Sequence record: PV159336
From: Escherichia phage W22
Reading direction: 5' to 3' (one strand)
Length of the DNA stretch: 64,000 nt
The translations under genes and the position numbers were made by a program. Each line of letters begins with the position of its first letter. Position 1 is the first letter of the stretch. Under the pieces are notes generated by a model. The model saw only the letters and a program-made list of their open reading frames with translations, searched no databases and was not told where the DNA came from. This document shows, in pieces, positions 29,270 to 37,930 of the stretch.

Positions 29270-29701
29270 TTAATCAGTGAAAATTACGCTCACATCTTCT
29301 TTAGAGAAGAGTTTATGATCTTCGCCTTTTGTCTCAAGAGTTTCATACAGGTTAAGAAGTTCTGAAACATCTTTCTCTACCAGTTTCTTCAATGTTGCAA
29401 TTTTCTGTTTGCGACTCTTAATACGTTCAGCTACAACCTTACGTTGGTATCCAGCAGTACGATAACCTGAGAAAGTTACACCAGTAAGACTTGCAGTTAC
29501 AGGATCGTAGTGACGTTCAATCTGAAATTTATTAAAAGGTACAGCGTCATCACGAATAATCTTACCGCCATTACTTACTTGACGAAGACCAGTAACTTGT
29601 TCCAGTCGTGCCATAGAAATCTTTGGAGACAGACCAGAGTCCAAATTCATACCGTTGTTAATCAGTGCTTTCAGGGTGATTTTGCTGTTCATTGTACTCA
29701 T
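29270..29701 (-). CDS. hypothetical protein linked to DNA methyltransferase
   Basis: 143 aa; own strong RBS (GGAGGA) embedded in 3' end of MTase gene, 44-nt overlap. Confidence 0.45.
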   Translation of the reverse strand: MSTMNSKITLKALINNGMNLDSGLSPKISMARLEQVTGLRQVSNGGKIIRDDAVPFNKFQIERHYDPVTASLTGVTFSGYRTAGYQRKVVAERIKSRKQKIATLKKLVEKDVSELLNLYETLETKGEDHKLFSKEDVSVIFTD

Positions 29702-30389
29702 TTAGTCGTTCCTCCGCTTGCTTAAAAATATTTACATCGGCTTCACAGCCTAAGTATTCTCTACCTGTTAAAAGTGCCGCAACTTGTGTTGTTGCACTTC
29801 CAGAGAAGAAGTCTAAGACTACATCTCCTTCGTTGGTATGTATATTAATAAGGTCACAAAACAAAGTCAAGTGTTTTTGTGTTGGATGAAAACGATCTGC
29901 TCCTTGATAGATAGGATACTCAAACACACCCTTATGGTAGGAAGCATTGAAGGTTGGCTTCGAACCTTTAACACAAACAATAGCCATCTCTTTAGCGTTA
30001 CTAAGGTAGTTAACACCACTGTTGATGGGTACAGGGTTTGTTTTAATCCATTCAATAGTACGGAACATACGAAAACCAAGCGGTTCAAGGATTTCACGTA
30101 GCTCCTGGATCTTCCAGATATCATACCAAACTATGCAAGTACCACCTTTTCTAAGCACCCTATAGGCTTCTTTGAATACTTCTTTAAAGTAAGGAATATC
30201 TACAACGTCCCAGTCACCAAAGTTGTAAGATACACGGAATCTATCCGTATCTTTTCCAGTAGGCTCTCCAGATTGAAAATTTGTGTCACGAGAAATAGCA
30301 TATGGTGGGTCAGTAAGAATCAAATCTACACTATTGCTTTCGAGGGTTTGCAGGTAGTTTAATGCAGTGTTGTTTACAAATTCGCTCAT
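29658..30389 (-). CDS. DNA methyltransferase (beta-class N6-adenine/N4-cytosine, DPPY type)
   Basis: Catalytic motif LILTDPPYA near N-terminus and AdoMet-binding motif FFSGSATT near C-terminus (order IV then I = beta class). Confidence 0.75.
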   Translation of the reverse strand: MSEFVNNTALNYLQTLESNSVDLILTDPPYAISRDTNFQSGEPTGKDTDRFRVSYNFGDWDVVDIPYFKEVFKEAYRVLRKGGTCIVWYDIWKIQELREILEPLGFRMFRTIEWIKTNPVPINSGVNYLSNAKEMAIVCVKGSKPTFNASYHKGVFEYPIYQGADRFHPTQKHLTLFCDLINIHTNEGDVVLDFFSGSATTQVAALLTGREYLGCEADVNIFKQAEERLNEYNEQQNHPESTD

Positions 30390-30405
30390 TATATCTCCTT
30401 CAAAG

Positions 30406-30430
30406 AAAAGGAGCCGTTAGGCTCCTTATA
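30406..30430 (-). terminator. rho-independent terminator after ssDNA-binding protein gene
   Basis: AAAAGGAGCC-GTTA-GGCTCCTT; near-identical stem to hairpin at 29241-29258. Confidence 0.5.
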
Positions 30431-30449
30431 TTCACACAATATTTAACTA

Positions 30450-31397
30450 TTAGAAACAGTGCAGGAAGTTTCGACCATATTGCAAACCAATAGGAGCAAA
30501 CGGGATATCATCATCGAAATCTTGAACAACAGGTTCTGGTTCTTTCGGTGCTGGCTCTTTCTTCTCTACTTTTTTAGTTTCTTTCTTAACATCTTGTACT
30601 GGAGTAGACATTCCACGGATAGCAGCAGCTACTTTATCAGACAAAGCAAGAACTTCACGAGCAGCTTCAATAATCTCTTCTGCCGTTACAGTTTTACCTG
30701 TATGATCACGACAAGCGTTAAGAATTGCGTGTCCAACTGAAGCACCAAGATCATAGTCAGTCACATCAACACCACGATCTTTAGCAATTTCAGCTTTCAG
30801 AGTAACAGTTGCAGATTGTACCACACCAGCCAAATCGAAAGCATCACCTTTCACACCAGCACGTAGAAGCTCCAGAGCGCCGTTTACAGCGTGTCCTGTT
30901 TCAATCCCTACGGTATCACGTTTTTTGTAGTTAGGCTTGTTACCGTCATTATTAGATGGCTTATTTCCACCTTTTGAAGAGGATTGCGCTTGCTGAACAC
31001 CTTCTGTTGAAAGAATAGTGATTTTACCTTTAGAGGAGTTGTAGTATGTTTTACCATTCCATTCGGAAGGTTTAACATCCATAGTTAGTTCTACGCCTTT
31101 TTCGATAGTAACCCACTTATCACCATCTTTAACTTGCAGGTTTTCATGTTCTGGGTGCAGTTTAACTTCACCTAGGCTAACCCAAACACCTTTATCATCA
31201 GCACCAGCACCTTTCTCTTTAATAAGCAGAGATGCTTTGTGAGTTGATTCAATTTTCTTATCTGGCTGACCTGCAACCTTAATATAAGAGACTTTCATTT
31301 CATCAAACTTATCTAGCTTGACATATTCGACAATACCTTCAGCCCAGAATGCTTCTTTTTTAGTACGACGGTCGATTTCAGAATTAATTACTGGCAT
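30450..31397 (-). CDS. putative ssDNA-binding protein with SSB-like acidic DDDIPF motif
   Basis: 315 aa; beta-rich N-terminal domain, helical middle domain, C-terminal FDDDIPF followed by 15 extra residues (APIGLQYGRNFLHCF). Confidence 0.4.
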   Translation of the reverse strand: MPVINSEIDRRTKKEAFWAEGIVEYVKLDKFDEMKVSYIKVAGQPDKKIESTHKASLLIKEKGAGADDKGVWVSLGEVKLHPEHENLQVKDGDKWVTIEKGVELTMDVKPSEWNGKTYYNSSKGKITILSTEGVQQAQSSSKGGNKPSNNDGNKPNYKKRDTVGIETGHAVNGALELLRAGVKGDAFDLAGVVQSATVTLKAEIAKDRGVDVTDYDLGASVGHAILNACRDHTGKTVTAEEIIEAAREVLALSDKVAAAIRGMSTPVQDVKKETKKVEKKEPAPKEPEPVVQDFDDDIPFAPIGLQYGRNFLHCF

Positions 31398-31855: not shown

Positions 31856-32470
31856 TTAAATCTTAAATTCTTCGTTGTTAAATGAATCCAGTGTACGTAC
31901 TTCTGGTTCTTTGGGAATGAAAACGTCTTTTACAAAGCGGAACATAGGGAAACGTTCTGCCATTTTACGGACGTGTGCTTCTTTACCTGTGTATCGGTGA
32001 TTAATAGTGCAAATATTAGTTTTCAATGCAAATTCAAAATCTGGATGATATACATAATTTTGACCATCCCAGTAACACAGGCAAATAGCTACGTCAAAGT
32101 TCCATACGATTTCACTGCGTACACCTTCTTCCATGATCATAAAGTTAAACTTAAGGTCTTTATAGTATGCTTCAAATACCCATTTCAAATGTGGTAGTTC
32201 GGCATAAGTGTGTTCTGTTTGCTTAGTAAGTTGTTTAACATTACGTGCACCAACACCCAACATCAAAAATTTCTCTACTAGCACGAGTGTATTGTGGTTA
32301 GGCATACGCAAGTAAATGTCAATGTTTTGTGCAGGTTTCTCTAATCGCCAATCACGTACAGCGCCGCCAGCTACAATTGCAAACGGATCTACCAGTTGGC
32401 ACATACGTAATACTTCTAAAGCGCGTACTTTTTGATCTTCAATATTCATATTTTCTCCTATCGTGTCCAC
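31856..32470 (-). CDS. minimal nucleotidyltransferase (CCA-adding/poly(A) polymerase head-domain-like)
   Basis: Motif FAIVAGGAVRDWRLEKPAQNIDIYL matches GGxVRD...DxD of class II tRNA nucleotidyltransferase head domain; only 204 aa. Confidence 0.4.
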   Translation of the reverse strand: MDTIGENMNIEDQKVRALEVLRMCQLVDPFAIVAGGAVRDWRLEKPAQNIDIYLRMPNHNTLVLVEKFLMLGVGARNVKQLTKQTEHTYAELPHLKWVFEAYYKDLKFNFMIMEEGVRSEIVWNFDVAICLCYWDGQNYVYHPDFEFALKTNICTINHRYTGKEAHVRKMAERFPMFRFVKDVFIPKEPEVRTLDSFNNEEFKI

Positions 32471-33054
32471 TCTTTATGTTGTTCTACATGCTCAAGCATT
32501 TCATTATACAGTGCTTTAAGATGTGGAACAACTCTTTCATCTTCAGTTTCAAAGAATTTTGTAAGCTGTTCTGCTTTAGCTTTCAACCAGCAAAGATGCG
32601 CTTCAATTTCAGTATTAAAACGCCCCAGCGTTTTCATGCGACCGTCTACTTTTATATTGGCTTTGTATTTATTACGATCTTTTTCGTAACTACAGCCTAC
32701 CATAGTTCCATGAGATCTTTTACTTACTCTATAAGCTAAGAACTTATTAAGATCTCCTGTTACTAAAAGACAGGTATCGGGAGAGTAAACCCTCCCTCCT
32801 ATAATATCTTTATCAAGTTCTAAGTTTTCCCAGTTTTCCCAAGTTTGCAACCAGGAGTAGAAATTTGAGAACAGTTTCCATTCTTCACAAACCGTCACCC
32901 CCTTATAACAAGGATCACGTTCTTGTTGGCAAGGGGAGTAACACCTCCCCAACATAGCCATCCATTTCATATAATGCGGCGTTAGTTTCTTACTACCAGG
33001 TAGTGTACTCTCGCCTTCCAAATCATTAATACCTTCACCATATACGGTAAGCAT
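32458..33054 (-). CDS. AP2-domain / HNH-type homing endonuclease-like protein
   Basis: N-terminal Cys-rich region (YKGVTVCEEWKLFSNFYSW) and AP2-like segment (KYKANIKVDGRMKTLGRFNTEIEAHLCWLKA). Confidence 0.45.
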   Translation of the reverse strand: MLTVYGEGINDLEGESTLPGSKKLTPHYMKWMAMLGRCYSPCQQERDPCYKGVTVCEEWKLFSNFYSWLQTWENWENLELDKDIIGGRVYSPDTCLLVTGDLNKFLAYRVSKRSHGTMVGCSYEKDRNKYKANIKVDGRMKTLGRFNTEIEAHLCWLKAKAEQLTKFFETEDERVVPHLKALYNEMLEHVEQHKEWTR

Positions 33055-33081: not shown

Positions 33082-35661
33082 TCAGTGACAAGTTGACCAT
33101 GAACTACCAACATCGTAACCAGCAGTGAGAGGTACATTAAGATTGTAATACTCACCAGCTTTATTAACAGCGATAGATGCTAATTCTCCAGCACGACTGT
33201 AGGCTGTAAACCAACCACCTTTCGGAGATTCATGTACGTTAGCCCAAATCTTGCCAGTACGTTTCTCTTCCTCTTCTTTCCAGGCGTTAACTTTATCCAA
33301 ACATTCTTTATCAATTTTCTTTTGTTCTTCTGGATCATCAACTTGAGTCCAACCTAAAGATTCTTTAGAGAACCATTTAAAATGCACCAGATCACGAGTT
33401 ACTTCAAGCTGTGCTTCATCGTGATATGCAATCATTTGTTGAACGAATGACTTATTTTTCCAGTCATCAACAAAAAAGTCAACAGCTAATCCTTCTTCTT
33501 CGATAAGATCATCGTAGATAACCATTGCTCTTTTTGCACAAATAACACCACCACTCTGGAACAGAGAGTTAAGTATTGCGTGTGCAGATCGTGTAGGTAC
33601 TTTCCTACCATCAATACCAAGAATGTATTTCTTACCTGTTTTAACCCAAAAATCATGCAGACGTTCTTTAAGAAGAGCAAGAGGCTTTGCAGCTTCCCAG
33701 AAAGCATCGTATACAAGCTGTCCTGTATACATATCACTACCAATAGTTTTTGCTACTTTTGCAGCTTGAGCACCATAAGTAATGCCATACTTAACAGATT
33801 TAGCAGGGCTTCGTTCAAACTTGCGACCAATAGTGTCAGAAATACGTCGAGCCATCATTGTATGAACATCATTAGGTTTTTCCAACAATAGAGCATTACA
33901 ATATTCGTGTGGTTCCTGCTCGTACCGCCAACAGTAGTGTGATTCTATTTTTGCCTCAAGAGAATCAAAATCATAACCAATTTGGAAGTATTTTGGAACT
34001 TCTACACCAAATAAGTTACGCATTTCATATCCGTACAGAGATGTTACACGTGGGATATTTGCTACTAGCCTATGCTTCATACGAGACGTAGCTGCATCAC
34101 ACGTTGCAGCAGGAGTTGGTATACGACCATCAGCCCTTACTGCCGCCAGATAACCTTTATCGTAATCCTCTTCATCTTCTTCCCAATCAGCGCCACCACC
34201 TAGAATAGAGTTTCTACGATGTTTATACGTAAGATACTGCACAATCTGCGTAGCATAAGGAAACTTTTCACCTAGTGCTTCCAAGTTAGGACAAATATCC
34301 TTCTCTTGCCCTTTTGTAAAGGAAGGGTTAGTAAGCACTTTAACACCACGACCTTTAGCTTTAGCAATACGATCTCTTAGTTTCCATTCCAAAGTTTCTG
34401 GTGTGCACTCCAGATGATCACATCTGTCCTGGCAGAAATTAGATGCTAATGTTTGATCAACATAGTCACGAATAGCCTTCTCCATTTGTGCTTCATCTTT
34501 CTTAATCTTAGTGCCAGATTTAAGAGTGATATCTTTATCTTTATATTCAGATGGACTCCAACCTAAACCAACTAACCAATTTTTAATATGTGTAGTGTCG
34601 TCTAAAGTAGCAGGTACTGTAGGATCACAAATAGGTTCTTCTGCTGGAATAGGTAGTTTAAACTCTTTACCTAATGCAAATAACCACCAACCATCTTCTT
34701 TTTGTACAAGTTCACCAGAATGTTTCTCTGCAAACTTTATCATGTTACTTGAAGGTTCACCATTCTTTTTAAACTGTAGTTTAGGTGGAATGAATGATTT
34801 CAAATAACCTTTAGTAGCAGGTTTAGGAGGTAGCACAGGTTCTGCCTCTAAACGACATGCTTCCATTCGAGCATCCAGATCACGAATATTATCTTCTGCT
34901 TGTTTCATATTGAAAGCAAAGCCACGGTGCTCTTGACGTGTAATAATATCAGCTACACGTTGTTCTAAGTTAAATGGTTCAGACCACTTGTTATAATCAC
35001 CCCACTCTTCCATCAAATAACGGAACACTGCGGTGTTAGCTTTGTTATCGTAAATACAGTAATACAGCATATCTGCTGCAAATGTTCTAAATCTTTCAGT
35101 TTCAGGAATGTTTTTTCTAAAATCAATTTTAACATCCCCTCCAGCTTTCTTAGATAACTCTGCCAGACTATGACCACCGAAGCGATCAGGGTTTAGTGTC
35201 TTACTTAAGATCATAGTATCACAAATTTCAATGTTACTATTACCCCAAGTATTGTACTTAATACTGTAGTTGAGTTTAAAAAATAATTTAATTGCCAGTA
35301 AGTCGAAGTTAATGATGTTGTGTCCAACTACTTTGGTAATTTTATAGTTTGAATTACCTTTAAATTTACCTGTTCCATTTACAAAATCAGGAAAATCTTT
35401 AAGAGGGAAATGGGTATATTCTAAATGCTCATATTCCTCCAGTCGGTATTCATACTTTCCGTCAGTCTCAATATACGGACGACCATCGAAAAGATATTTA
35501 TCACCATCATGGAAAGCAATAATCTCTCCAGTATCATGACTTTCGCACACAATACAGTGCATTGCAAAACTATCTTTTAAACGATATGGACTTGCCAAGT
35601 AATCTACACTTTCGTCATTAAGCAAGTTGTTACTTTCAATGTCGAAAGTAAAAGCTCCCAT
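33082..35661 (-). CDS. DNA polymerase, family A (T7-like) with 3'-5' exonuclease
   Basis: 859 aa; N-terminal Exo I motif FDIES, motif B KSVKYGITYGAQ, motif C AYHDEAQ. Confidence 0.8.
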   Translation of the reverse strand: MGAFTFDIESNNLLNDESVDYLASPYRLKDSFAMHCIVCESHDTGEIIAFHDGDKYLFDGRPYIETDGKYEYRLEEYEHLEYTHFPLKDFPDFVNGTGKFKGNSNYKITKVVGHNIINFDLLAIKLFFKLNYSIKYNTWGNSNIEICDTMILSKTLNPDRFGGHSLAELSKKAGGDVKIDFRKNIPETERFRTFAADMLYYCIYDNKANTAVFRYLMEEWGDYNKWSEPFNLEQRVADIITRQEHRGFAFNMKQAEDNIRDLDARMEACRLEAEPVLPPKPATKGYLKSFIPPKLQFKKNGEPSSNMIKFAEKHSGELVQKEDGWWLFALGKEFKLPIPAEEPICDPTVPATLDDTTHIKNWLVGLGWSPSEYKDKDITLKSGTKIKKDEAQMEKAIRDYVDQTLASNFCQDRCDHLECTPETLEWKLRDRIAKAKGRGVKVLTNPSFTKGQEKDICPNLEALGEKFPYATQIVQYLTYKHRRNSILGGGADWEEDEEDYDKGYLAAVRADGRIPTPAATCDAATSRMKHRLVANIPRVTSLYGYEMRNLFGVEVPKYFQIGYDFDSLEAKIESHYCWRYEQEPHEYCNALLLEKPNDVHTMMARRISDTIGRKFERSPAKSVKYGITYGAQAAKVAKTIGSDMYTGQLVYDAFWEAAKPLALLKERLHDFWVKTGKKYILGIDGRKVPTRSAHAILNSLFQSGGVICAKRAMVIYDDLIEEEGLAVDFFVDDWKNKSFVQQMIAYHDEAQLEVTRDLVHFKWFSKESLGWTQVDDPEEQKKIDKECLDKVNAWKEEEEKRTGKIWANVHESPKGGWFTAYSRAGELASIAVNKAGEYYNLNVPLTAGYDVGSSWSTCH

Positions 35662-35751: not shown

Positions 35752-36147
35752 TTATTTATTGTCAGCACTTAATTGTACTTTAATAAGGCAATTAGGGACA
35801 CCATTGGTATTTCTCAAGCCTACACGTTCAATTTTAACTGTCCCTGTTAAGCCACTAAAAGTGGAAACAATGTTATTAATGTTTTCATCCTTACTAGCTA
35901 TATCAAGAACAACCTTATCACTAACATTTTTCAGCATACGATCTACAAGCTCTCCCACAAAACCACTGGTAGTTTGAATGAGAAGGTATAGGCAACCATC
36001 CTCAAACCACAAATGTTCACCATAAGCATAACCGTATGGTTCTAACTCCGATCCATCTTGAAATTTAAACTTAGCAACAGTTTTCGTATAATCATACCCT
36101 AACGCAGAAGGGGATACCCCATAAAGGATATTTTCGTTGTCTTTCAT
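35752..36147 (-). CDS. hypothetical protein
   Basis: ORF track gives 35752..36276; ATG at 36147 with GGAG RBS right after primase stop is the more likely start (131 aa). Confidence 0.4.
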   Translation of the reverse strand: MKDNENILYGVSPSALGYDYTKTVAKFKFQDGSELEPYGYAYGEHLWFEDGCLYLLIQTTSGFVGELVDRMLKNVSDKVVLDIASKDENINNIVSTFSGLTGTVKIERVGLRNTNGVPNCLIKVQLSADNK

Positions 36148-36157
36148 ATTTCTCTCC

Positions 36158-37930
36158 TTAATAAGAACCATCAGGAATATTCTCTGGGTTACTTGTGTAT
36201 TGATCGTAATCGTGAAGTGTAGCTGTTTTAATCTCATAGAAGAAACTACCTGCTGCACCAGTTTCTGAGAACTCACGGTTCTTTAGAATGTAGCAATATG
36301 TGCGGTTACGTTCCATAGGATCTTCAGCTTGTTTATCACGCTCCAGCGCAATTGTGATACCAGCACCTTTAGCAAGGAAGCTACTACCCATTGCATCATC
36401 TTCTACAATATGTTCATTACTATTGTTAGAAGACTTTTTAACGTGTGAAATTACAACAATGGTAATTGCGTACTCTTTCATAATGCGTTTGAGCCACGTC
36501 GCAAGTTCCTCTTGTTGTGACACGTCCATACCAGAAAGCAAGTCAGAATAAGGGTCGATAACAAGAATGGTTACTCCGAAATAAATAATCATTTCCAGAA
36601 CCTTCTCTTTAATCACATCTACGTTAGCTCCACGATCATCACAAACATAGAAACGTGGTGTTCCATCTTCTCGTTCGTAAAAATCACGAATCTTTTCTTC
36701 ATTATCTTTTAAAATCTTTTCCTTCTCTTCTTTTGTTTTACGGTGAAGAGGGATGTGCAAGAATGAAGACAGTAAGTTACGAGAATACTTCTTATACGTT
36801 GCCTCCAAAGATAAAATACCAAGAGTATGTTCTGGGTGTGCAAGAATAATGTGCTTCGTAATCTCGTTAACCAACAGTGTTTTACCGATACTTGTTTTTG
36901 CAAGTATAACAGTAATTTCTTCTTCTACCAAGCCTCCACCTAACATATTAGAAGCAACACGCATGAATGGAGGAAGGGTGATCATTTTAGCTTCCAGGCA
37001 TTCCAAGGCTGCTTCATACAGTACGTTAGAAGCATAAACACCAGCAGGTGTGTACAGTTTAGCTTTGAAAAAGCGATCAAGAAAGTGATCAATTTTTCCT
37101 TCTACTAGTGCCTGGTTAGGATCTTTAACATCCGTTAGTTCCATCACGTAAACTTTATTACGTGGTAAGATTTTAACACATTTCTCAACTGCTGCACGTC
37201 CAGCTTCATCATTATCCATACACAGAACAATCTTTTTAAATTGATCTAAGAATTTATAACGATGTTGAAGCTGCTTATGCAGAGATGTTTCGCCACAAGT
37301 ACCAGATACTACAGCAGGAACAGGATATTTACCGCCCTTGTTATAATCTTTTAGCATCTGTGTTGCAGCCAGCATATCGTGTTCACCACCAACAATTAGA
37401 ATAGTACCGCTGTGGTTACGATATTTAAACTCACCAAAAAGATCACAATCCTTTCCTGTTTCACCAATAGGATGCGAAAAATCTTTTGGATCGATACGTT
37501 GTTTATACCCAGCAATATTGTAATCTTTAGTTGTAGGGTATAATGTTGAAATTACTTCGCCAGTAGCTTCATCGTACATATAGCGTACACCGAAAGGTTT
37601 AGAGATATCTTCACGAATACCGCGATAACCTTTTGGATTAGTTCCAGTGCTGGCTTTTAGTTTATCATGTACTTCTGGATTAAACTCACTACCCAAGATA
37701 TCCTCCTCTTCAATTTCTTCGCCGTGTGCATTTAACCATTTTTGATCAGGGATAGTAAAGCCACAAGAAAAACAATGTGCGCCTCGATGGTCTTCATCGG
37801 CATCTAAGCCATATACCATCAAATTGTTTTGTGATCGATCACGCCCTCCTTTCATACAACGAGGACACCCAGTATGTCCTTCTTGACTTAGATCAATGTT
37901 ATACCCATATTTATTTACAACATAAGACAC
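36158..37930 (-). CDS. bifunctional DNA primase-helicase (T7 gp4-like)
   Basis: 590 aa; N-terminal zinc ribbon (CPRC...CFSCGF), TOPRIM-like acidic motif (LCMDNDEAG), C-terminal P-loop (AKTSIGKT). Confidence 0.8.
   Translation of the reverse strand: MSYVVNKYGYNIDLSQEGHTGCPRCMKGGRDRSQNNLMVYGLDADEDHRGAHCFSCGFTIPDQKWLNAHGEEIEEEDILGSEFNPEVHDKLKASTGTNPKGYRGIREDISKPFGVRYMYDEATGEVISTLYPTTKDYNIAGYKQRIDPKDFSHPIGETGKDCDLFGEFKYRNHSGTILIVGGEHDMLAATQMLKDYNKGGKYPVPAVVSGTCGETSLHKQLQHRYKFLDQFKKIVLCMDNDEAGRAAVEKCVKILPRNKVYVMELTDVKDPNQALVEGKIDHFLDRFFKAKLYTPAGVYASNVLYEAALECLEAKMITLPPFMRVASNMLGGGLVEEEITVILAKTSIGKTLLVNEITKHIILAHPEHTLGILSLEATYKKYSRNLLSSFLHIPLHRKTKEEKEKILKDNEEKIRDFYEREDGTPRFYVCDDRGANVDVIKEKVLEMIIYFGVTILVIDPYSDLLSGMDVSQQEELATWLKRIMKEYAITIVVISHVKKSSNNSNEHIVEDDAMGSSFLAKGAGITIALERDKQAEDPMERNRTYCYILKNREFSETGAAGSFFYEIKTATLHDYDQYTSNPENIPDGSY

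What the first reader, a model, noticed from the sequence alone, without database searches (positions are those of the whole stretch)
30450..31397. ssDNA-binding-like protein with an internal, not terminal, DDDIPF motif
The protein contains FDDDIPF, identical to the bacterial SSB C-terminal tail that recruits partner proteins, but here 15 residues (APIGLQYGRNFLHCF) follow it. In established knowledge the free C-terminal Phe is important for SSB-tail interactions. A masked tail could mean a regulated or decoy SSB, a different binding mode, or a lost stop codon (sequence variant).
Basis: partly seen in the sequence, partly recalled or inferred. Interest (0 to 1): 0.45.

Follow-up and report, generated by a model that had tools for sequence, protein, structure and literature searches.

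The report
Conserved add-on after phage SSB tail
The phage's ssDNA-binding-like protein really does carry 15 extra residues after the normally terminal DDDIPF tail; this add-on is a conserved, mobile peptide found on many unrelated phage replication proteins, is often linked to a homing-type endonuclease, and has no known function.

Summary
The minus-strand ORF 30450-31397 encodes 315 aa ending FDDDIPF + APIGLQYGRNFLHCF. It is not an artefact: more than 50 phi92-like (Justusliebigvirus) genomes carry the full-length gene at 95% identity or more.

The protein has a predicted OB fold, a four-helix bundle and a disordered tail. It lies in a T7-like replication module and is homologous to Bas52_0087, the reported DRT10 trigger.

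Most homologues stop exactly at IPF. The extension nevertheless recurs in at least 9 independent state changes within this family. As AP-[IVLF]-G-L-[QPM]-Y-x(7-9), it also occurs on canonical prophage SSBs, at least five other ssDNA-binding scaffolds, and primase-helicases. Synonymous sites are saturated while the peptide is conserved, so the peptide itself is under selection.

In this lineage the extension belongs to a small cassette: extension, then an optional HNH-type endonuclease, then a terminator. The window holds the endonuclease-free form. That endonuclease family follows an SSB-type tail in 75 of 75 loci, and its presence correlates with residues added after the Phe.

The function is unknown. 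My best guess is a second docking element that changes which partners the tail binds. I found no literature describing it.

The parts
30450..31397 (-). CDS of the SSB-like protein (315 aa plus TAA stop), a member of phrog_4477
   Evidence: ORF. phrog_4477 E 5.7e-101, with the profile ending at residue 300. 95-99.7% identical in 55 phage records. Located in the replication module.
31008..31397 (-). N-terminal beta-barrel, predicted OB fold (residues 1-130)
30618..30911 (-). Four-helix bundle (residues 163-260), preceded by a disordered linker (131-162)
   Evidence: AF2 helices H163-179, H186-208, H215-230 and H239-260, pLDDT 90-97. It is the most conserved body domain, 81-83% aa identity to 60% relatives. 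It aligns to the Bas52_0087 region carrying DRT10 escape mutation D252V, equivalent to D161 here.
30519..30617 (-). Disordered K/E/P-rich linker (residues 261-293)
   Evidence: AF2 pLDDT 50-69 and coil. Poorly conserved, 52-54% aa.
30498..30518 (-). FDDDIPF (residues 294-300), identical to the E. coli SSB C-terminal tip but internal here
   Evidence: Sequence. About 78 of 100 homologue clusters end exactly here.
30453..30497 (-). 15-residue extension APIGLQYGRNFLHCF (residues 301-315): the conserved portable add-on motif
   Evidence: Same motif on canonical SSBs, other scaffolds and primase-helicases. 100% aa and 88.9% nt identity to L057/L080, all 5 differences synonymous. pN/pS 0.41 against 0.77 for the adjacent linker, with pS saturated. 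AF2 pLDDT about 50 and not docked.
30428..30449 (-). 22-nt spacer between the stop codon and the terminator. This is the position where relatives carry a 495-nt HNH-type endonuclease gene.
   Evidence: Alignment of the window with L082, L057 and L080. The endonuclease ORF lies exactly between the extension stop codon and the shared terminator.
30402..30427 (-). Intrinsic-terminator-like hairpin (GGAGCC-TAAC-GGCTCC plus T run), shared with the endonuclease-bearing cassette of Phapecoctavirus relatives
   Evidence: Sequence. Near-identical hairpin AAGGAGCC(A/T)AA(C/T)GGCTCCTTTTCTT follows the endonuclease in L057, L080 and L082, whereas extension-less L040 has a different terminator.

Best explanation
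The gene encodes the phage's replication SSB-like protein: an OB fold, a four-helix bundle, a disordered linker and an acidic tip. Its DDDIPF tip is followed by a genuine, selected and laterally mobile 14-16-residue add-on, AP-[IVLF]-G-L-[QPM]-Y followed by 7-9 residues that end in a hydrophobic [IL]-x-[CAV]-[ILMF]-COOH. In this lineage the add-on arrived on a small 3'-end cassette made of the extension, an optional HNH-type homing endonuclease and a terminator. The window carries the endonuclease-free version of that cassette. These points are shown. The following is inferred. The add-on buries the Phe carboxylate that the known SSB-tip pockets use. It is nevertheless conserved in sequence and is attached to many unrelated ssDNA-binding scaffolds and to primase-helicases. 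I therefore propose it acts as a second short linear docking element that changes partner selectivity of the tail. It would weaken canonical carboxylate-dependent recruitment of host SSB-interacting proteins and add affinity for another fork-associated partner. That partner is most likely a host protein, because temperate phages lacking their own polymerase carry the add-on too.
For: The ORF is real and fixed in the genus. It has an SSB-like fold and sits in a T7-like replisome context with family A polymerase and a Toprim+DnaB_C primase-helicase. It is homologous to Bas52_0087, which a paper reports as an SSB-like DRT10 trigger. The extension motif is found on PF00436-type prophage SSBs of Proteus, Providencia, Vibrio, Pseudoalteromonas, Oceanisphaera and others. 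It is also found on phrog_2544/32668, phrog_3284, phrog_9002/DUF669 and phrog_44 scaffolds, and on Seunavirus/Mydovirus primase-helicases ending DDDTPFAPIGLQYA[NK]HAIYV[LI]. 190 of 611 phage records with an SSB-type tail match cover the extension. There is peptide-level selection: all codons are used at fourfold sites, the free positions are Ile 46/57 and Gln 47/57, and the length is constant. pN/pS is 0.41 against 0.77 for the neighbouring linker with pS saturated. There are 5 synonymous and 0 non-synonymous changes against L057, and two of these changes are non-synonymous in the overlapping endonuclease frame. At least 9 state changes occur among 76 family members with an extension-less root. 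The extension-less L040 is 99.3% identical to L057 up to the Phe codon and unrelated afterwards. Cassette structure and an endonuclease deletion derivative are seen in ECO340P2, and the terminator is shared with the window. The C-terminal half of the motif sorts by host clade, which is suggestive of a host partner.
Against: No partner was identified. AF2 leaves the extension disordered and undocked. Close relatives without the extension, in Phapecoctavirus and P0003 at 86% identity, are evidently viable, so it is dispensable for replication. The statistical and physical link to an endonuclease that behaves like a selfish element allows an origin, and partly a maintenance, unrelated to SSB function. 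Host-clade sorting of motif classes could be shared ancestry or local recombination rather than co-adaptation. ssDNA binding of this family has never been measured.
Confidence: 0.45

Rival explanations
1. Homing-endonuclease by-product. The extension exists because an SSB-3'-end-specific HNH-type endonuclease (phrog_2340) spreads by homing. Residues added after the Phe codon change the target site (immunity) and/or are co-converted with the endonuclease and supply its start codon. Under this view the peptide is merely tolerated by the SSB, and the window keeps the scar after endonuclease loss.
For: The endonuclease ORF starts inside the extension, at the ATG formed by the TAT-G of the conserved Tyr. 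This is seen in 6 loci on five different host-gene scaffolds. In 75 of 75 loci the endonuclease follows a gene with an SSB-type tail; 47 of those tails have one extra residue and 6 have three or more. 58 of 102 DDIPFN-TAA loci carry the endonuclease, against 0 of 108 DDDIPF-TAA loci (p=4e-24). 6 of 60 extension-bearing loci carry it against 0 of 108 (p=0.002). The L040, L057 and L082 series shows gain of extension plus endonuclease at the Phe codon, followed by internal deletion of the endonuclease. The window shares both the extension and the terminator with that cassette.
Against: About 90% of extension-bearing loci have no endonuclease, and the whole 'QYP' class in temperate phages is never associated with it. 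The peptide, not the DNA, is conserved: synonymous sites are saturated and pN/pS is 0.41 against 0.77 for the linker. Where the two frames overlap, the SSB frame is the conserved one and the endonuclease N-termini are unrelated. One extra residue suffices in most endonuclease-bearing loci, so a conserved 15-mer is not needed for immunity. Homing activity and the target site of this endonuclease are untested.
Confidence: 0.25
2. Pure mask or decoy. The extension only serves to bury the Phe carboxylate, so that phage SSB-coated ssDNA does not recruit host SSB-interacting nucleases and helicases (ExoI/SbcB, RecJ, RecQ) or tip-sensing defence components.
For: Established structural knowledge (from memory, e.g. 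Lu & Keck 2008; Shereda 2008) holds that SSB-tip pockets pair a hydrophobic pocket with basic residues. PMC3632105 describes this pocket type and says the basic residues probably bind the acidic residues and/or the terminal carboxyl group. A homologue without the extension, Bas52_0087, triggers DRT10 in a pathway modulated by SbcB. Even single-residue additions after Phe are common in phage SSBs.
Against: A mask could be any sequence, yet AP-x-G-L-x-Y and the hydrophobic C-terminus are conserved across at least 7 scaffolds and several bacterial orders. DDDIPF itself stays strictly conserved upstream of the extension, which is unexpected if the tip is simply switched off. The motif also sits on primase-helicases.
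Confidence: 0.15
3. Pro-peptide. The extension is removed by a specific protease after F300, conditionally unmasking a canonical DDDIPF-COOH tip and so providing a timed switch.
For: It would explain why both the tip and the extension are conserved. The hydrophobic C-termini (…HCF, …YAL, …NCM) resemble protease and degron recognition tails; this resemblance is from memory only.
Against: No protease is linked to the loci. There is no precedent. No processing-site evidence exists. The motif occurs in very different phages and prophages.
Confidence: 0.05
4. Sequencing or assembly artefact, or a recent loss of the stop codon with random read-through.
For: Most homologues end at IPF, and the PHROG profile ends there.
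Against: The identical 315-aa reading frame is present in 55 independent phage records. Extension-less relatives show no remnant of the extension after their stop codon. The motif is conserved widely.
Confidence: 0.01

Closest known systems
E. coli SSB C-terminal tip (SSB-Ct, DDDIPF), the hub for SSB-interacting proteins
   Same: The FDDDIPF heptapeptide is identical and is preceded by a disordered linker on an OB-fold protein. The PPMDFDDDIPF version occurs in many relatives.
   Different: The Phe is not C-terminal, because 15 conserved residues follow it. The OB domain has no PF00436 match. A four-helix bundle is inserted between the OB fold and the tail.
Bas52_0087 of Escherichia phage RudolfGeigy (Vequintavirus), reported as the SSB-like trigger of the DRT10/UG17 defence system (bioRxiv 10.64898/2026.04.29.721553)
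   Same: It is homologous in OB1, the helical bundle and the tail (BLASTP E 3e-15). The escape residue D252 corresponds to the nearly invariant D161 here.
   Different: Bas52_0087 has two OB folds (409 aa) and ends exactly at FDDDIPF, so it lacks the extension. Other two-OB relatives (P0063, P0066, P0067) do carry it. The paper does not discuss extensions.
Phage T7 gp2.5 (SSB) and gp4 (primase-helicase) acidic C-terminal tails ending in Phe, which both bind gp5 polymerase (from memory: Richardson lab work)
   Same: The replisome is T7-like, with family A polymerase and a Toprim+DnaB_C primase-helicase. In related subfamilies both the SSB-like protein and the primase-helicase end in the same kind of acidic xPF tail, and both can carry the same extension.
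   Different: No sequence or fold match to gp2.5 was found. In T7 the terminal position of the Phe is reported to matter, whereas here it is internal. The window's own primase-helicase lacks such a tail.
Free-standing phage homing endonucleases (T4 Seg/Mob, I-HmuI type), which insert next to a conserved target gene and co-convert flanking sequence (from memory)
   Same: The phrog_2340 endonuclease shows presence/absence polymorphism between 98-99% identical genomes. It has sharp junctions at a conserved coding sequence and a degraded remnant in ECO340P2.
   Different: The window has no endonuclease at this site. Homing, the target site and cleavage are untested. The association is with a peptide-coding tail shared by unrelated genes rather than with one gene.
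HK620 SSB tail NDYPPF, which recruits the phage annealase Sak4 (PMC5928155)
   Same: It is a phage SSB whose last residues mediate contact with a phage-encoded partner rather than only host proteins.
   Different: That tail still ends in Phe. There is no extension and no sequence relation to AP-x-GL-x-Y.

Membership tests
Canonical bacterial/phage SSB (Pfam PF00436) | Sequence match to the PF00436 OB domain | tested here: not met
   No Pfam-A family at E<=1. No PDB sequence relative at E<=1.
Canonical bacterial/phage SSB (Pfam PF00436) | OB-fold ssDNA-binding domain (structure level) | tested here: met
Canonical bacterial/phage SSB (Pfam PF00436) | Disordered linker ending in an acidic tip whose Phe is the C-terminal residue | tested here: not met
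   The linker and FDDDIPF are present, but 15 residues follow the Phe.
Canonical bacterial/phage SSB (Pfam PF00436) | Binds ssDNA | not testable with these tools
   No biochemical data exist for any member of phrog_4477. The function is inferred from fold, tail and replication-module context.
phrog_4477 (SSB-like proteins of Stephanstirmvirinae/Vequintavirinae-type myophages, including Bas52_0087) | Profile match over OB, helical bundle and tail | tested here: met
   phrog_4477 E 5.7e-101. 100 homologue clusters down to 27% identity. BLASTP to Bas52_0087 E 3e-15.
phrog_4477 (SSB-like proteins of Stephanstirmvirinae/Vequintavirinae-type myophages, including Bas52_0087) | Position in the replication module next to primase-helicase and family A polymerase | tested here: met
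   Annotated relative Eryne. Pfam hits on the window ORFs.
T7 gp2.5/gp4-type shared acidic C-tail system | T7-like replisome (PolA plus a fused Toprim-DnaB primase-helicase) | tested here: met
   PF00476 on 33082-35661. PF13155 plus PF03796 on 36158-37930.
T7 gp2.5/gp4-type shared acidic C-tail system | Both the SSB and the helicase carry the same acidic tail with a terminal aromatic residue that binds the polymerase | tested here: inconclusive
   This holds by sequence in relatives: Bas52 has DDDIPF and EDDETPF, and KE23/K54_rec1 helicases have DDDTPF plus the extension. The window helicase ends ...NPENIPDGSY, without the motif. Binding was not tested.
Homing-endonuclease cassette at SSB 3' ends (phrog_2340 endonuclease) | Endonuclease ORF immediately downstream of, or overlapping, the tail | tested here: not met
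   In the window only 22 nt separate the stop codon and the terminator, and no endonuclease ORF is present.
Homing-endonuclease cassette at SSB 3' ends (phrog_2340 endonuclease) | Flanks (extension and terminator) homologous to endonuclease-bearing alleles | tested here: met
   The extension is 88.9% nt identical and the terminator hairpin is nearly identical to L057, L080 and L082, while the gene body is only 56-78% nt identical.
Homing-endonuclease cassette at SSB 3' ends (phrog_2340 endonuclease) | Site-specific cleavage of endonuclease-free alleles and homing | not testable with these tools
   Only comparative evidence is available: presence/absence polymorphism, a deletion remnant and statistical association.

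The most novel reading that the evidence does not exclude
The AP-x-G-L-x-Y...COOH add-on is an undescribed, portable short linear motif. It would convert the SSB tip from a carboxylate-dependent C-terminal ligand into an internal part of a longer bipartite ligand. This would redirect phage SSBs and primase-helicases to a different (probably host) fork protein, or away from ExoI-type nucleases and tip-linked defence systems. In addition, an HNH-type endonuclease family would have specialised in homing to SSB-tail coding sequence, shuffling such tail variants between unrelated phage genes.
Probability: 0.35. Interest if true: 0.75.

Novelty: new variant of a known kind. Interest (0 to 1): 0.6.

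Why it matters
The SSB C-terminal tip is a textbook protein-recruitment hub. It is also an antibacterial target and a design constraint for recombineering. The working rule is that its Phe must be the last residue.

Here about a third of the tail-matching phage records (190 of 611) cover a conserved peptide after that Phe, and the same peptide occurs on primase-helicases. If the add-on has its own partner, it would define a new way for phages to plug into or evade the host replication and repair network. It would also bear directly on how SSB-like proteins trigger defence systems such as DRT10.

The linked endonuclease family may be an example of a homing element that targets a short peptide-coding module shared by unrelated genes. 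Such an element could explain how tail variants spread.

All of this is directly testable with peptides and simple phage genetics.

Tried and rejected
1. Sequencing artefact or read-through was rejected.
2. A frameshift or alternative stop producing a short form was rejected. Neither the +1 nor the -1 frame has a stop near the Phe codon (read).
3. A second copy of the motif elsewhere in the window, for example on the primase-helicase, was not found.
4. A universal phage-encoded partner gene next to extension-bearing SSBs was sought by clustering ORFs within 4.5 kb in 49 loci. Only non-universal neighbours emerged: RdgC-like in 17 loci, MT-A70 in 12, and Rad52-like or Erf in a few.
5. Intramolecular docking of the extension was not seen. 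AF2 leaves it disordered at pLDDT about 50.
6. A beta-clamp-binding motif (QL[SD]LF or QLxLxL), a PIP box and a ssrA-like degron were compared by eye from memory. None fits consistently, and the Gln is not invariant (Q/P/M).
7. Full-text literature searches for PIGLQY, IPFAP, GLQYP and GLQYG found nothing relevant. SSB-Ct/phage/mimic and prophage/extension searches found no description of the add-on.
8. A PDB sequence search with the tail and with the whole protein found only the canonical tip.
9. A tail-profile search of the 5.8-billion-protein set returned only short fragments and was uninformative about scaffolds.
10. The window's 22-nt spacer might be a remnant of the endonuclease 3' end. 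Only about half of its positions match, judged by eye from the alignment. This cannot distinguish a never-occupied site from an old deletion.
11. A complex prediction of tail plus candidate partner is not possible with the tools allowed.
Full report
**1. The observation**

The window holds one minus-strand ORF at 30450..31397 (ATG start, 315 aa). It ends ...VVQDFDDDIPFAPIGLQYGRNFLHCF and is followed by TAA TAG. FDDDIPF is residues 294-300 (30498-30518), and 15 residues follow it (30453-30497). No other tail of this kind exists in the window.

**2. What the gene is**

tblastn places the window in phi92-like E. coli myophages (Justusliebigvirus, Stephanstirmvirinae). 55 phage records carry the same ORF at 95-99.7% identity over all 315 residues, so the extension is not a sequencing or assembly artefact.

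- Pfam finds nothing.
- PHROGs gives phrog_4477, function unknown, E 5.7e-101, and the profile ends at residue 300.
- An AlphaFold2 model built from 40 homologues (mean pLDDT 84) shows a beta-barrel (1-130), a disordered linker, a four-helix bundle (163-260) and a disordered tail. The extension has pLDDT about 50 and is not docked.

The gene sits in a replication module. The order is Toprim+DnaB_C primase-helicase (36158-37930), family A polymerase (33082-35661), an HNH endonuclease, a nucleotidyltransferase, a 132-aa protein, this gene, and an N6/N4 DNA methyltransferase. This is a T7-like replisome.

The protein is homologous to Bas52_0087 of phage RudolfGeigy (E 3e-15). A 2026 preprint identifies Bas52_0087 as a predicted SSB-like protein required to trigger the DRT10/UG17 defence system, in a pathway modulated by host ExoI/SbcB. 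The escape residue D252 there corresponds to the nearly invariant D161 here. Bas52_0087 itself ends exactly at FDDDIPF. 'SSB-like' is therefore well supported by prediction and context, but ssDNA binding has not been measured for any member.

**3. How unusual the extension is within the family**

Of 100 homologue cluster representatives, about 78 end exactly at D-x-D-[ILV]-P-F and about 21 continue for 14-16 residues. The continuations are clearly related: APIGLQYGRNFLHCF, APIGLQYGMNLLHAMP, APVGLQYARHAISALYA, SPLGLQYPNHSMYALYA, APIGLPYGRNFIHCI and others.

Extension-less relatives stop right after the Phe codon and run into a terminator, with no remnant of the extension downstream. On a neighbour-joining tree of 76 single-OB members, the 11 extension-bearing proteins are scattered as single tips. 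Fitch parsimony needs at least 9 state changes, and the root state is extension-less.

Against relatives that are 57-63% identical overall, the extension is the best-conserved part of the gene: 100% aa and 88.9% nt, with 5 synonymous and 0 non-synonymous differences. The rest of the gene is 56-79% nt identical. Such a pattern fits repeated lateral acquisition of a pre-existing module, not read-through.

**4. The extension is a portable motif**

A degenerate DNA pattern for DDIPF-AP-x-GL-Q-Y found 36 viral contigs, and a looser pattern found 20 bacterial genome loci. Most hits are ordinary PF00436-type SSBs (MASRGVNKVILVGNLG...) of temperate phages and prophages. Hosts include Proteus, Providencia, Moellerella, Sodalis, Vibrio, Pseudoalteromonas, Glaciecola and Oceanisphaera, and the tails end for example DDDIPFAPIGLQYPALLNCM or ...APIGLPYPRHAIYVI.

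A profile of the tail searched against 1.84 billion representatives found it on further scaffolds. With PHROG and Pfam annotation these are phrog_2544/32668, phrog_3284, phrog_9002 (DUF669) and phrog_44, plus several proteins with no family.

The DNA primase-helicases of Salmonella phage KE23 (Seunavirus) and Klebsiella phage K54_rec1 end ...DDDTPFAPIGLQYA[NK]HAIYV[LI]. The Bas52 primase-helicase ends ...EDDETPF. In these T7-like replisomes, therefore, both the SSB-like protein and the helicase can carry the same acidic xPF tail, with or without the same add-on.

In the phage GenBank set, 611 records match the tail and 190 cover the extension. In plasmids, 45 of 663 do; the top-listed full-coverage hits are 40-104 kb Salmonella and Vibrio plasmids, which I take to be phage-plasmid-like, whereas most of the other matches end at IPF.

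**5. Is the peptide itself selected?**

Among 57 unique extension DNAs, every codon is used at fourfold sites. The two positions not fixed by the search pattern are Ile in 46/57 and Gln in 47/57. The distance from the Tyr to the stop is 7-9 codons in the genuine SSB-type tails (two likely chance hits in genome loci depart from this).

Pooled Nei-Gojobori counts give saturated pS (0.78-0.81). For extension codons not fixed by the pattern, pN is 0.33 (pN/pS 0.41). For 15 linker codons just upstream, pN is 0.60 (pN/pS 0.77). Pairs are not phylogenetically independent, so this is indicative rather than a formal test.

The C-terminal half falls into classes that track host clades. Morganellaceae prophages have P-[RH]-[HI]-A-I-[YH]-[VI]-I. 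Vibrio and Alteromonadales phages have P-A-L-L-x-[CA]-M. E. coli and Salmonella myophages have GRNF[IL]HC[FI] or A[NK]HAIYV[LI].

Full-text searches for the motif found nothing relevant, and I found no paper that describes it.

**6. How it got here: a cassette with an optional endonuclease**

- Phapecoctavirus-like contigs L040 (no extension) and L057 (extension) are 99.3% identical up to the Phe codon and unrelated afterwards.
- In L057, in Pseudomonas phage PsgM04F and in phage nieznany, a 164-aa endonuclease ORF starts inside the extension. It belongs to phrog_2340, is EndoVII/HNH-like, and has the motifs CFKCG...MADGH.NKCKEC...HH. Its start is the ATG formed by TAT-G of the conserved Tyr.
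- The same endonuclease family overlaps the extension of the KE23 primase-helicase and of three other SSB scaffolds.
- ECO340P2 has the extension plus an internally deleted endonuclease remnant, MVETSCIASKVCFKCVRLNAE*.
- The window aligns with these alleles through the extension's stop codon, and again at a nearly identical terminator hairpin (30402-30427). The endonuclease sits exactly between these two points in the relatives, where the window has a 22-nt spacer.

The window therefore carries the endonuclease-free form of the same cassette. I cannot tell whether the site was never occupied or the endonuclease was lost.

**7. The endonuclease family is tied to SSB tails in general**

Of 80 viral loci encoding this family, 75 had enough upstream DNA, and in all 75 the upstream same-strand gene ends in an SSB-type tail. 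22 end at PF, 47 have one extra residue (36 Asn) and 6 have three or more.

Conversely, 58 of 102 loci with DDIPFN-TAA have the endonuclease within 900 nt downstream, against 0 of 108 loci with DDDIPF-TAA (Fisher p=4e-24). For extension-bearing loci the figure is 6 of 60 against 0 of 108 (p=0.002). There are caveats: the two patterns differ slightly, only TAA stops were sampled, and the control is the first 120 hits of a truncated scan.

This looks like a homing-type element specialised on SSB 3' ends, whose presence goes with residues added after the Phe. It gives a serious rival reading of why the extension exists: target-site immunity or co-conversion.

Several results argue against that being the whole story.
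- About 90% of extension-bearing loci lack the endonuclease.
- The 'QYP' class is never associated with it.
- One residue suffices in most endonuclease-bearing loci.
- Where the frames overlap, the SSB frame is the conserved one.

**8. Mechanism**

*Shown:*
- The extension is a real, fixed, peptide-level-conserved and laterally mobile add-on after an SSB tip.
- It occurs on many ssDNA-binding scaffolds and on primase-helicases.
- In this lineage it is carried on an endonuclease-associated cassette.

*Established knowledge:* SSB-tip pockets combine a hydrophobic pocket for Pro-Phe with basic residues. PMC3632105 says these basic residues probably bind the acidic residues and/or the terminal carboxyl group. 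From memory (e.g. Lu & Keck 2008 for ExoI), the basic residues contact the terminal carboxylate, and in T7 the terminal Phe of gp2.5 and gp4 is needed for polymerase contact.

*Inferred:* the add-on should impair canonical carboxylate-dependent binding. Because the add-on is conserved and DDDIPF stays conserved in front of it, the most economical reading is a longer bipartite ligand with altered partner selectivity. The partner is more likely a host protein, since temperate phages without a polymerase also have the add-on. I give this 0.45.

The rivals are: by-product of the endonuclease (0.25), pure mask (0.15), pro-peptide (0.05) and artefact (0.01).

**9. Novelty and verdict**

The protein family is known only as a predicted SSB-like protein and DRT10 trigger. 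The tip is textbook. The extension, its portability, its presence on helicases and the tail-specific endonuclease family appear undescribed in the literature I could search. I class this as a new variant of a known kind, of moderate to high interest. It contradicts a working rule about SSB tails in a large set of phages and is immediately testable. However, no function or partner has been demonstrated, and a selfish-element origin could make the peptide less important for SSB biology than its conservation suggests.

Noticed in passing
L057:6905-7399; L080:2547-3041; L078:2559-3011; L395:2474-2968; viral loci L084-L163: An EndoVII/HNH-like endonuclease family (phrog_2340) lies directly downstream of a gene ending in an SSB-type acidic xPF tail in 75 of 75 loci. 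It is found in 58 of 102 DDIPFN-TAA loci but 0 of 108 DDDIPF-TAA loci. 351 phage GenBank records hold it, 189 of them Vibrio phages. It looks like a homing element specialised on SSB 3' ends.
   Followed up: partly
viral loci L164-L274 and L084-L163: Many phage SSB-type proteins end in ...DDIPFN (also S, K, D or R after the Phe). A single extra residue after the supposedly obligatory C-terminal Phe is therefore common in phages, mostly where the endonuclease is or may have been present.
   Followed up: partly
L078:524-2578 (Salmonella phage KE23); L079:518-2581 (Klebsiella phage K54_rec1); L081:32613-34691 (Bas52_0075): Vequintavirinae DNA primase-helicases end in SSB-tip-like tails: ...DDDTPF plus APIGLQYA[NK]HAIYV[LI], or ...EDDETPF. 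This parallels the shared acidic C-tails of T7 gp4 and gp2.5. The window's own primase-helicase (36158-37930) ends ...NPENIPDGSY without the motif.
   Followed up: partly
window 32458-33054 (-): A 198-aa HNH endonuclease (phrog_953, E 7e-75) sits between the nucleotidyltransferase and the family A DNA polymerase. The closely related phage Eryne has only a 31-codon ORF at that position, so this is probably a separate mobile endonuclease insertion.
   Followed up: partly
window 29658-30389 (-) and 29270-29701 (-): An N6/N4 DNA methyltransferase (PF01555, DPPY motif) starts 60 nt after the SSB-like gene. Its 3' end overlaps by 44 nt a conserved 143-aa ORF of unknown function (phrog_20244). DNA methyltransferases also follow extension-bearing SSB genes in 12 temperate-phage loci (MT-A70 type, 10 nt downstream).
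   Followed up: no
loci L003, L005, L007, L019, L026, L033, L034, L062 and others: RdgC-like ORFs, some fused to an FtsK-gamma-like C-terminus, flank extension-bearing canonical SSB genes in 17 of 49 temperate-phage and prophage loci. I did not check whether this also holds for extension-less SSBs.
   Followed up: no
window 35752-36276 (-) vs 36158-37930 (-): The listed ORF 35752-36276 (phrog_22634, match from residue 44) overlaps the 3' end of the primase-helicase gene by about 120 nt as listed. The real start is probably the internal Met.
   Followed up: no
proteins P0121, P0124, P0133, P0135, P0196 (E. coli, Klebsiella and Salmonella SSB fragments): Further extension variants lack the GLQY core but keep the C-terminal half, for example DDDIPFAPVTLPFPRHAIHAI, DDDIPFAPFGHSVSRHALYALS and DDDIPFIGHGYGVCRKAIYAIS. 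This suggests the [RK]-H-A-[IL]-[HY]-A-[IL] end is a conserved sub-element in its own right.
   Followed up: no
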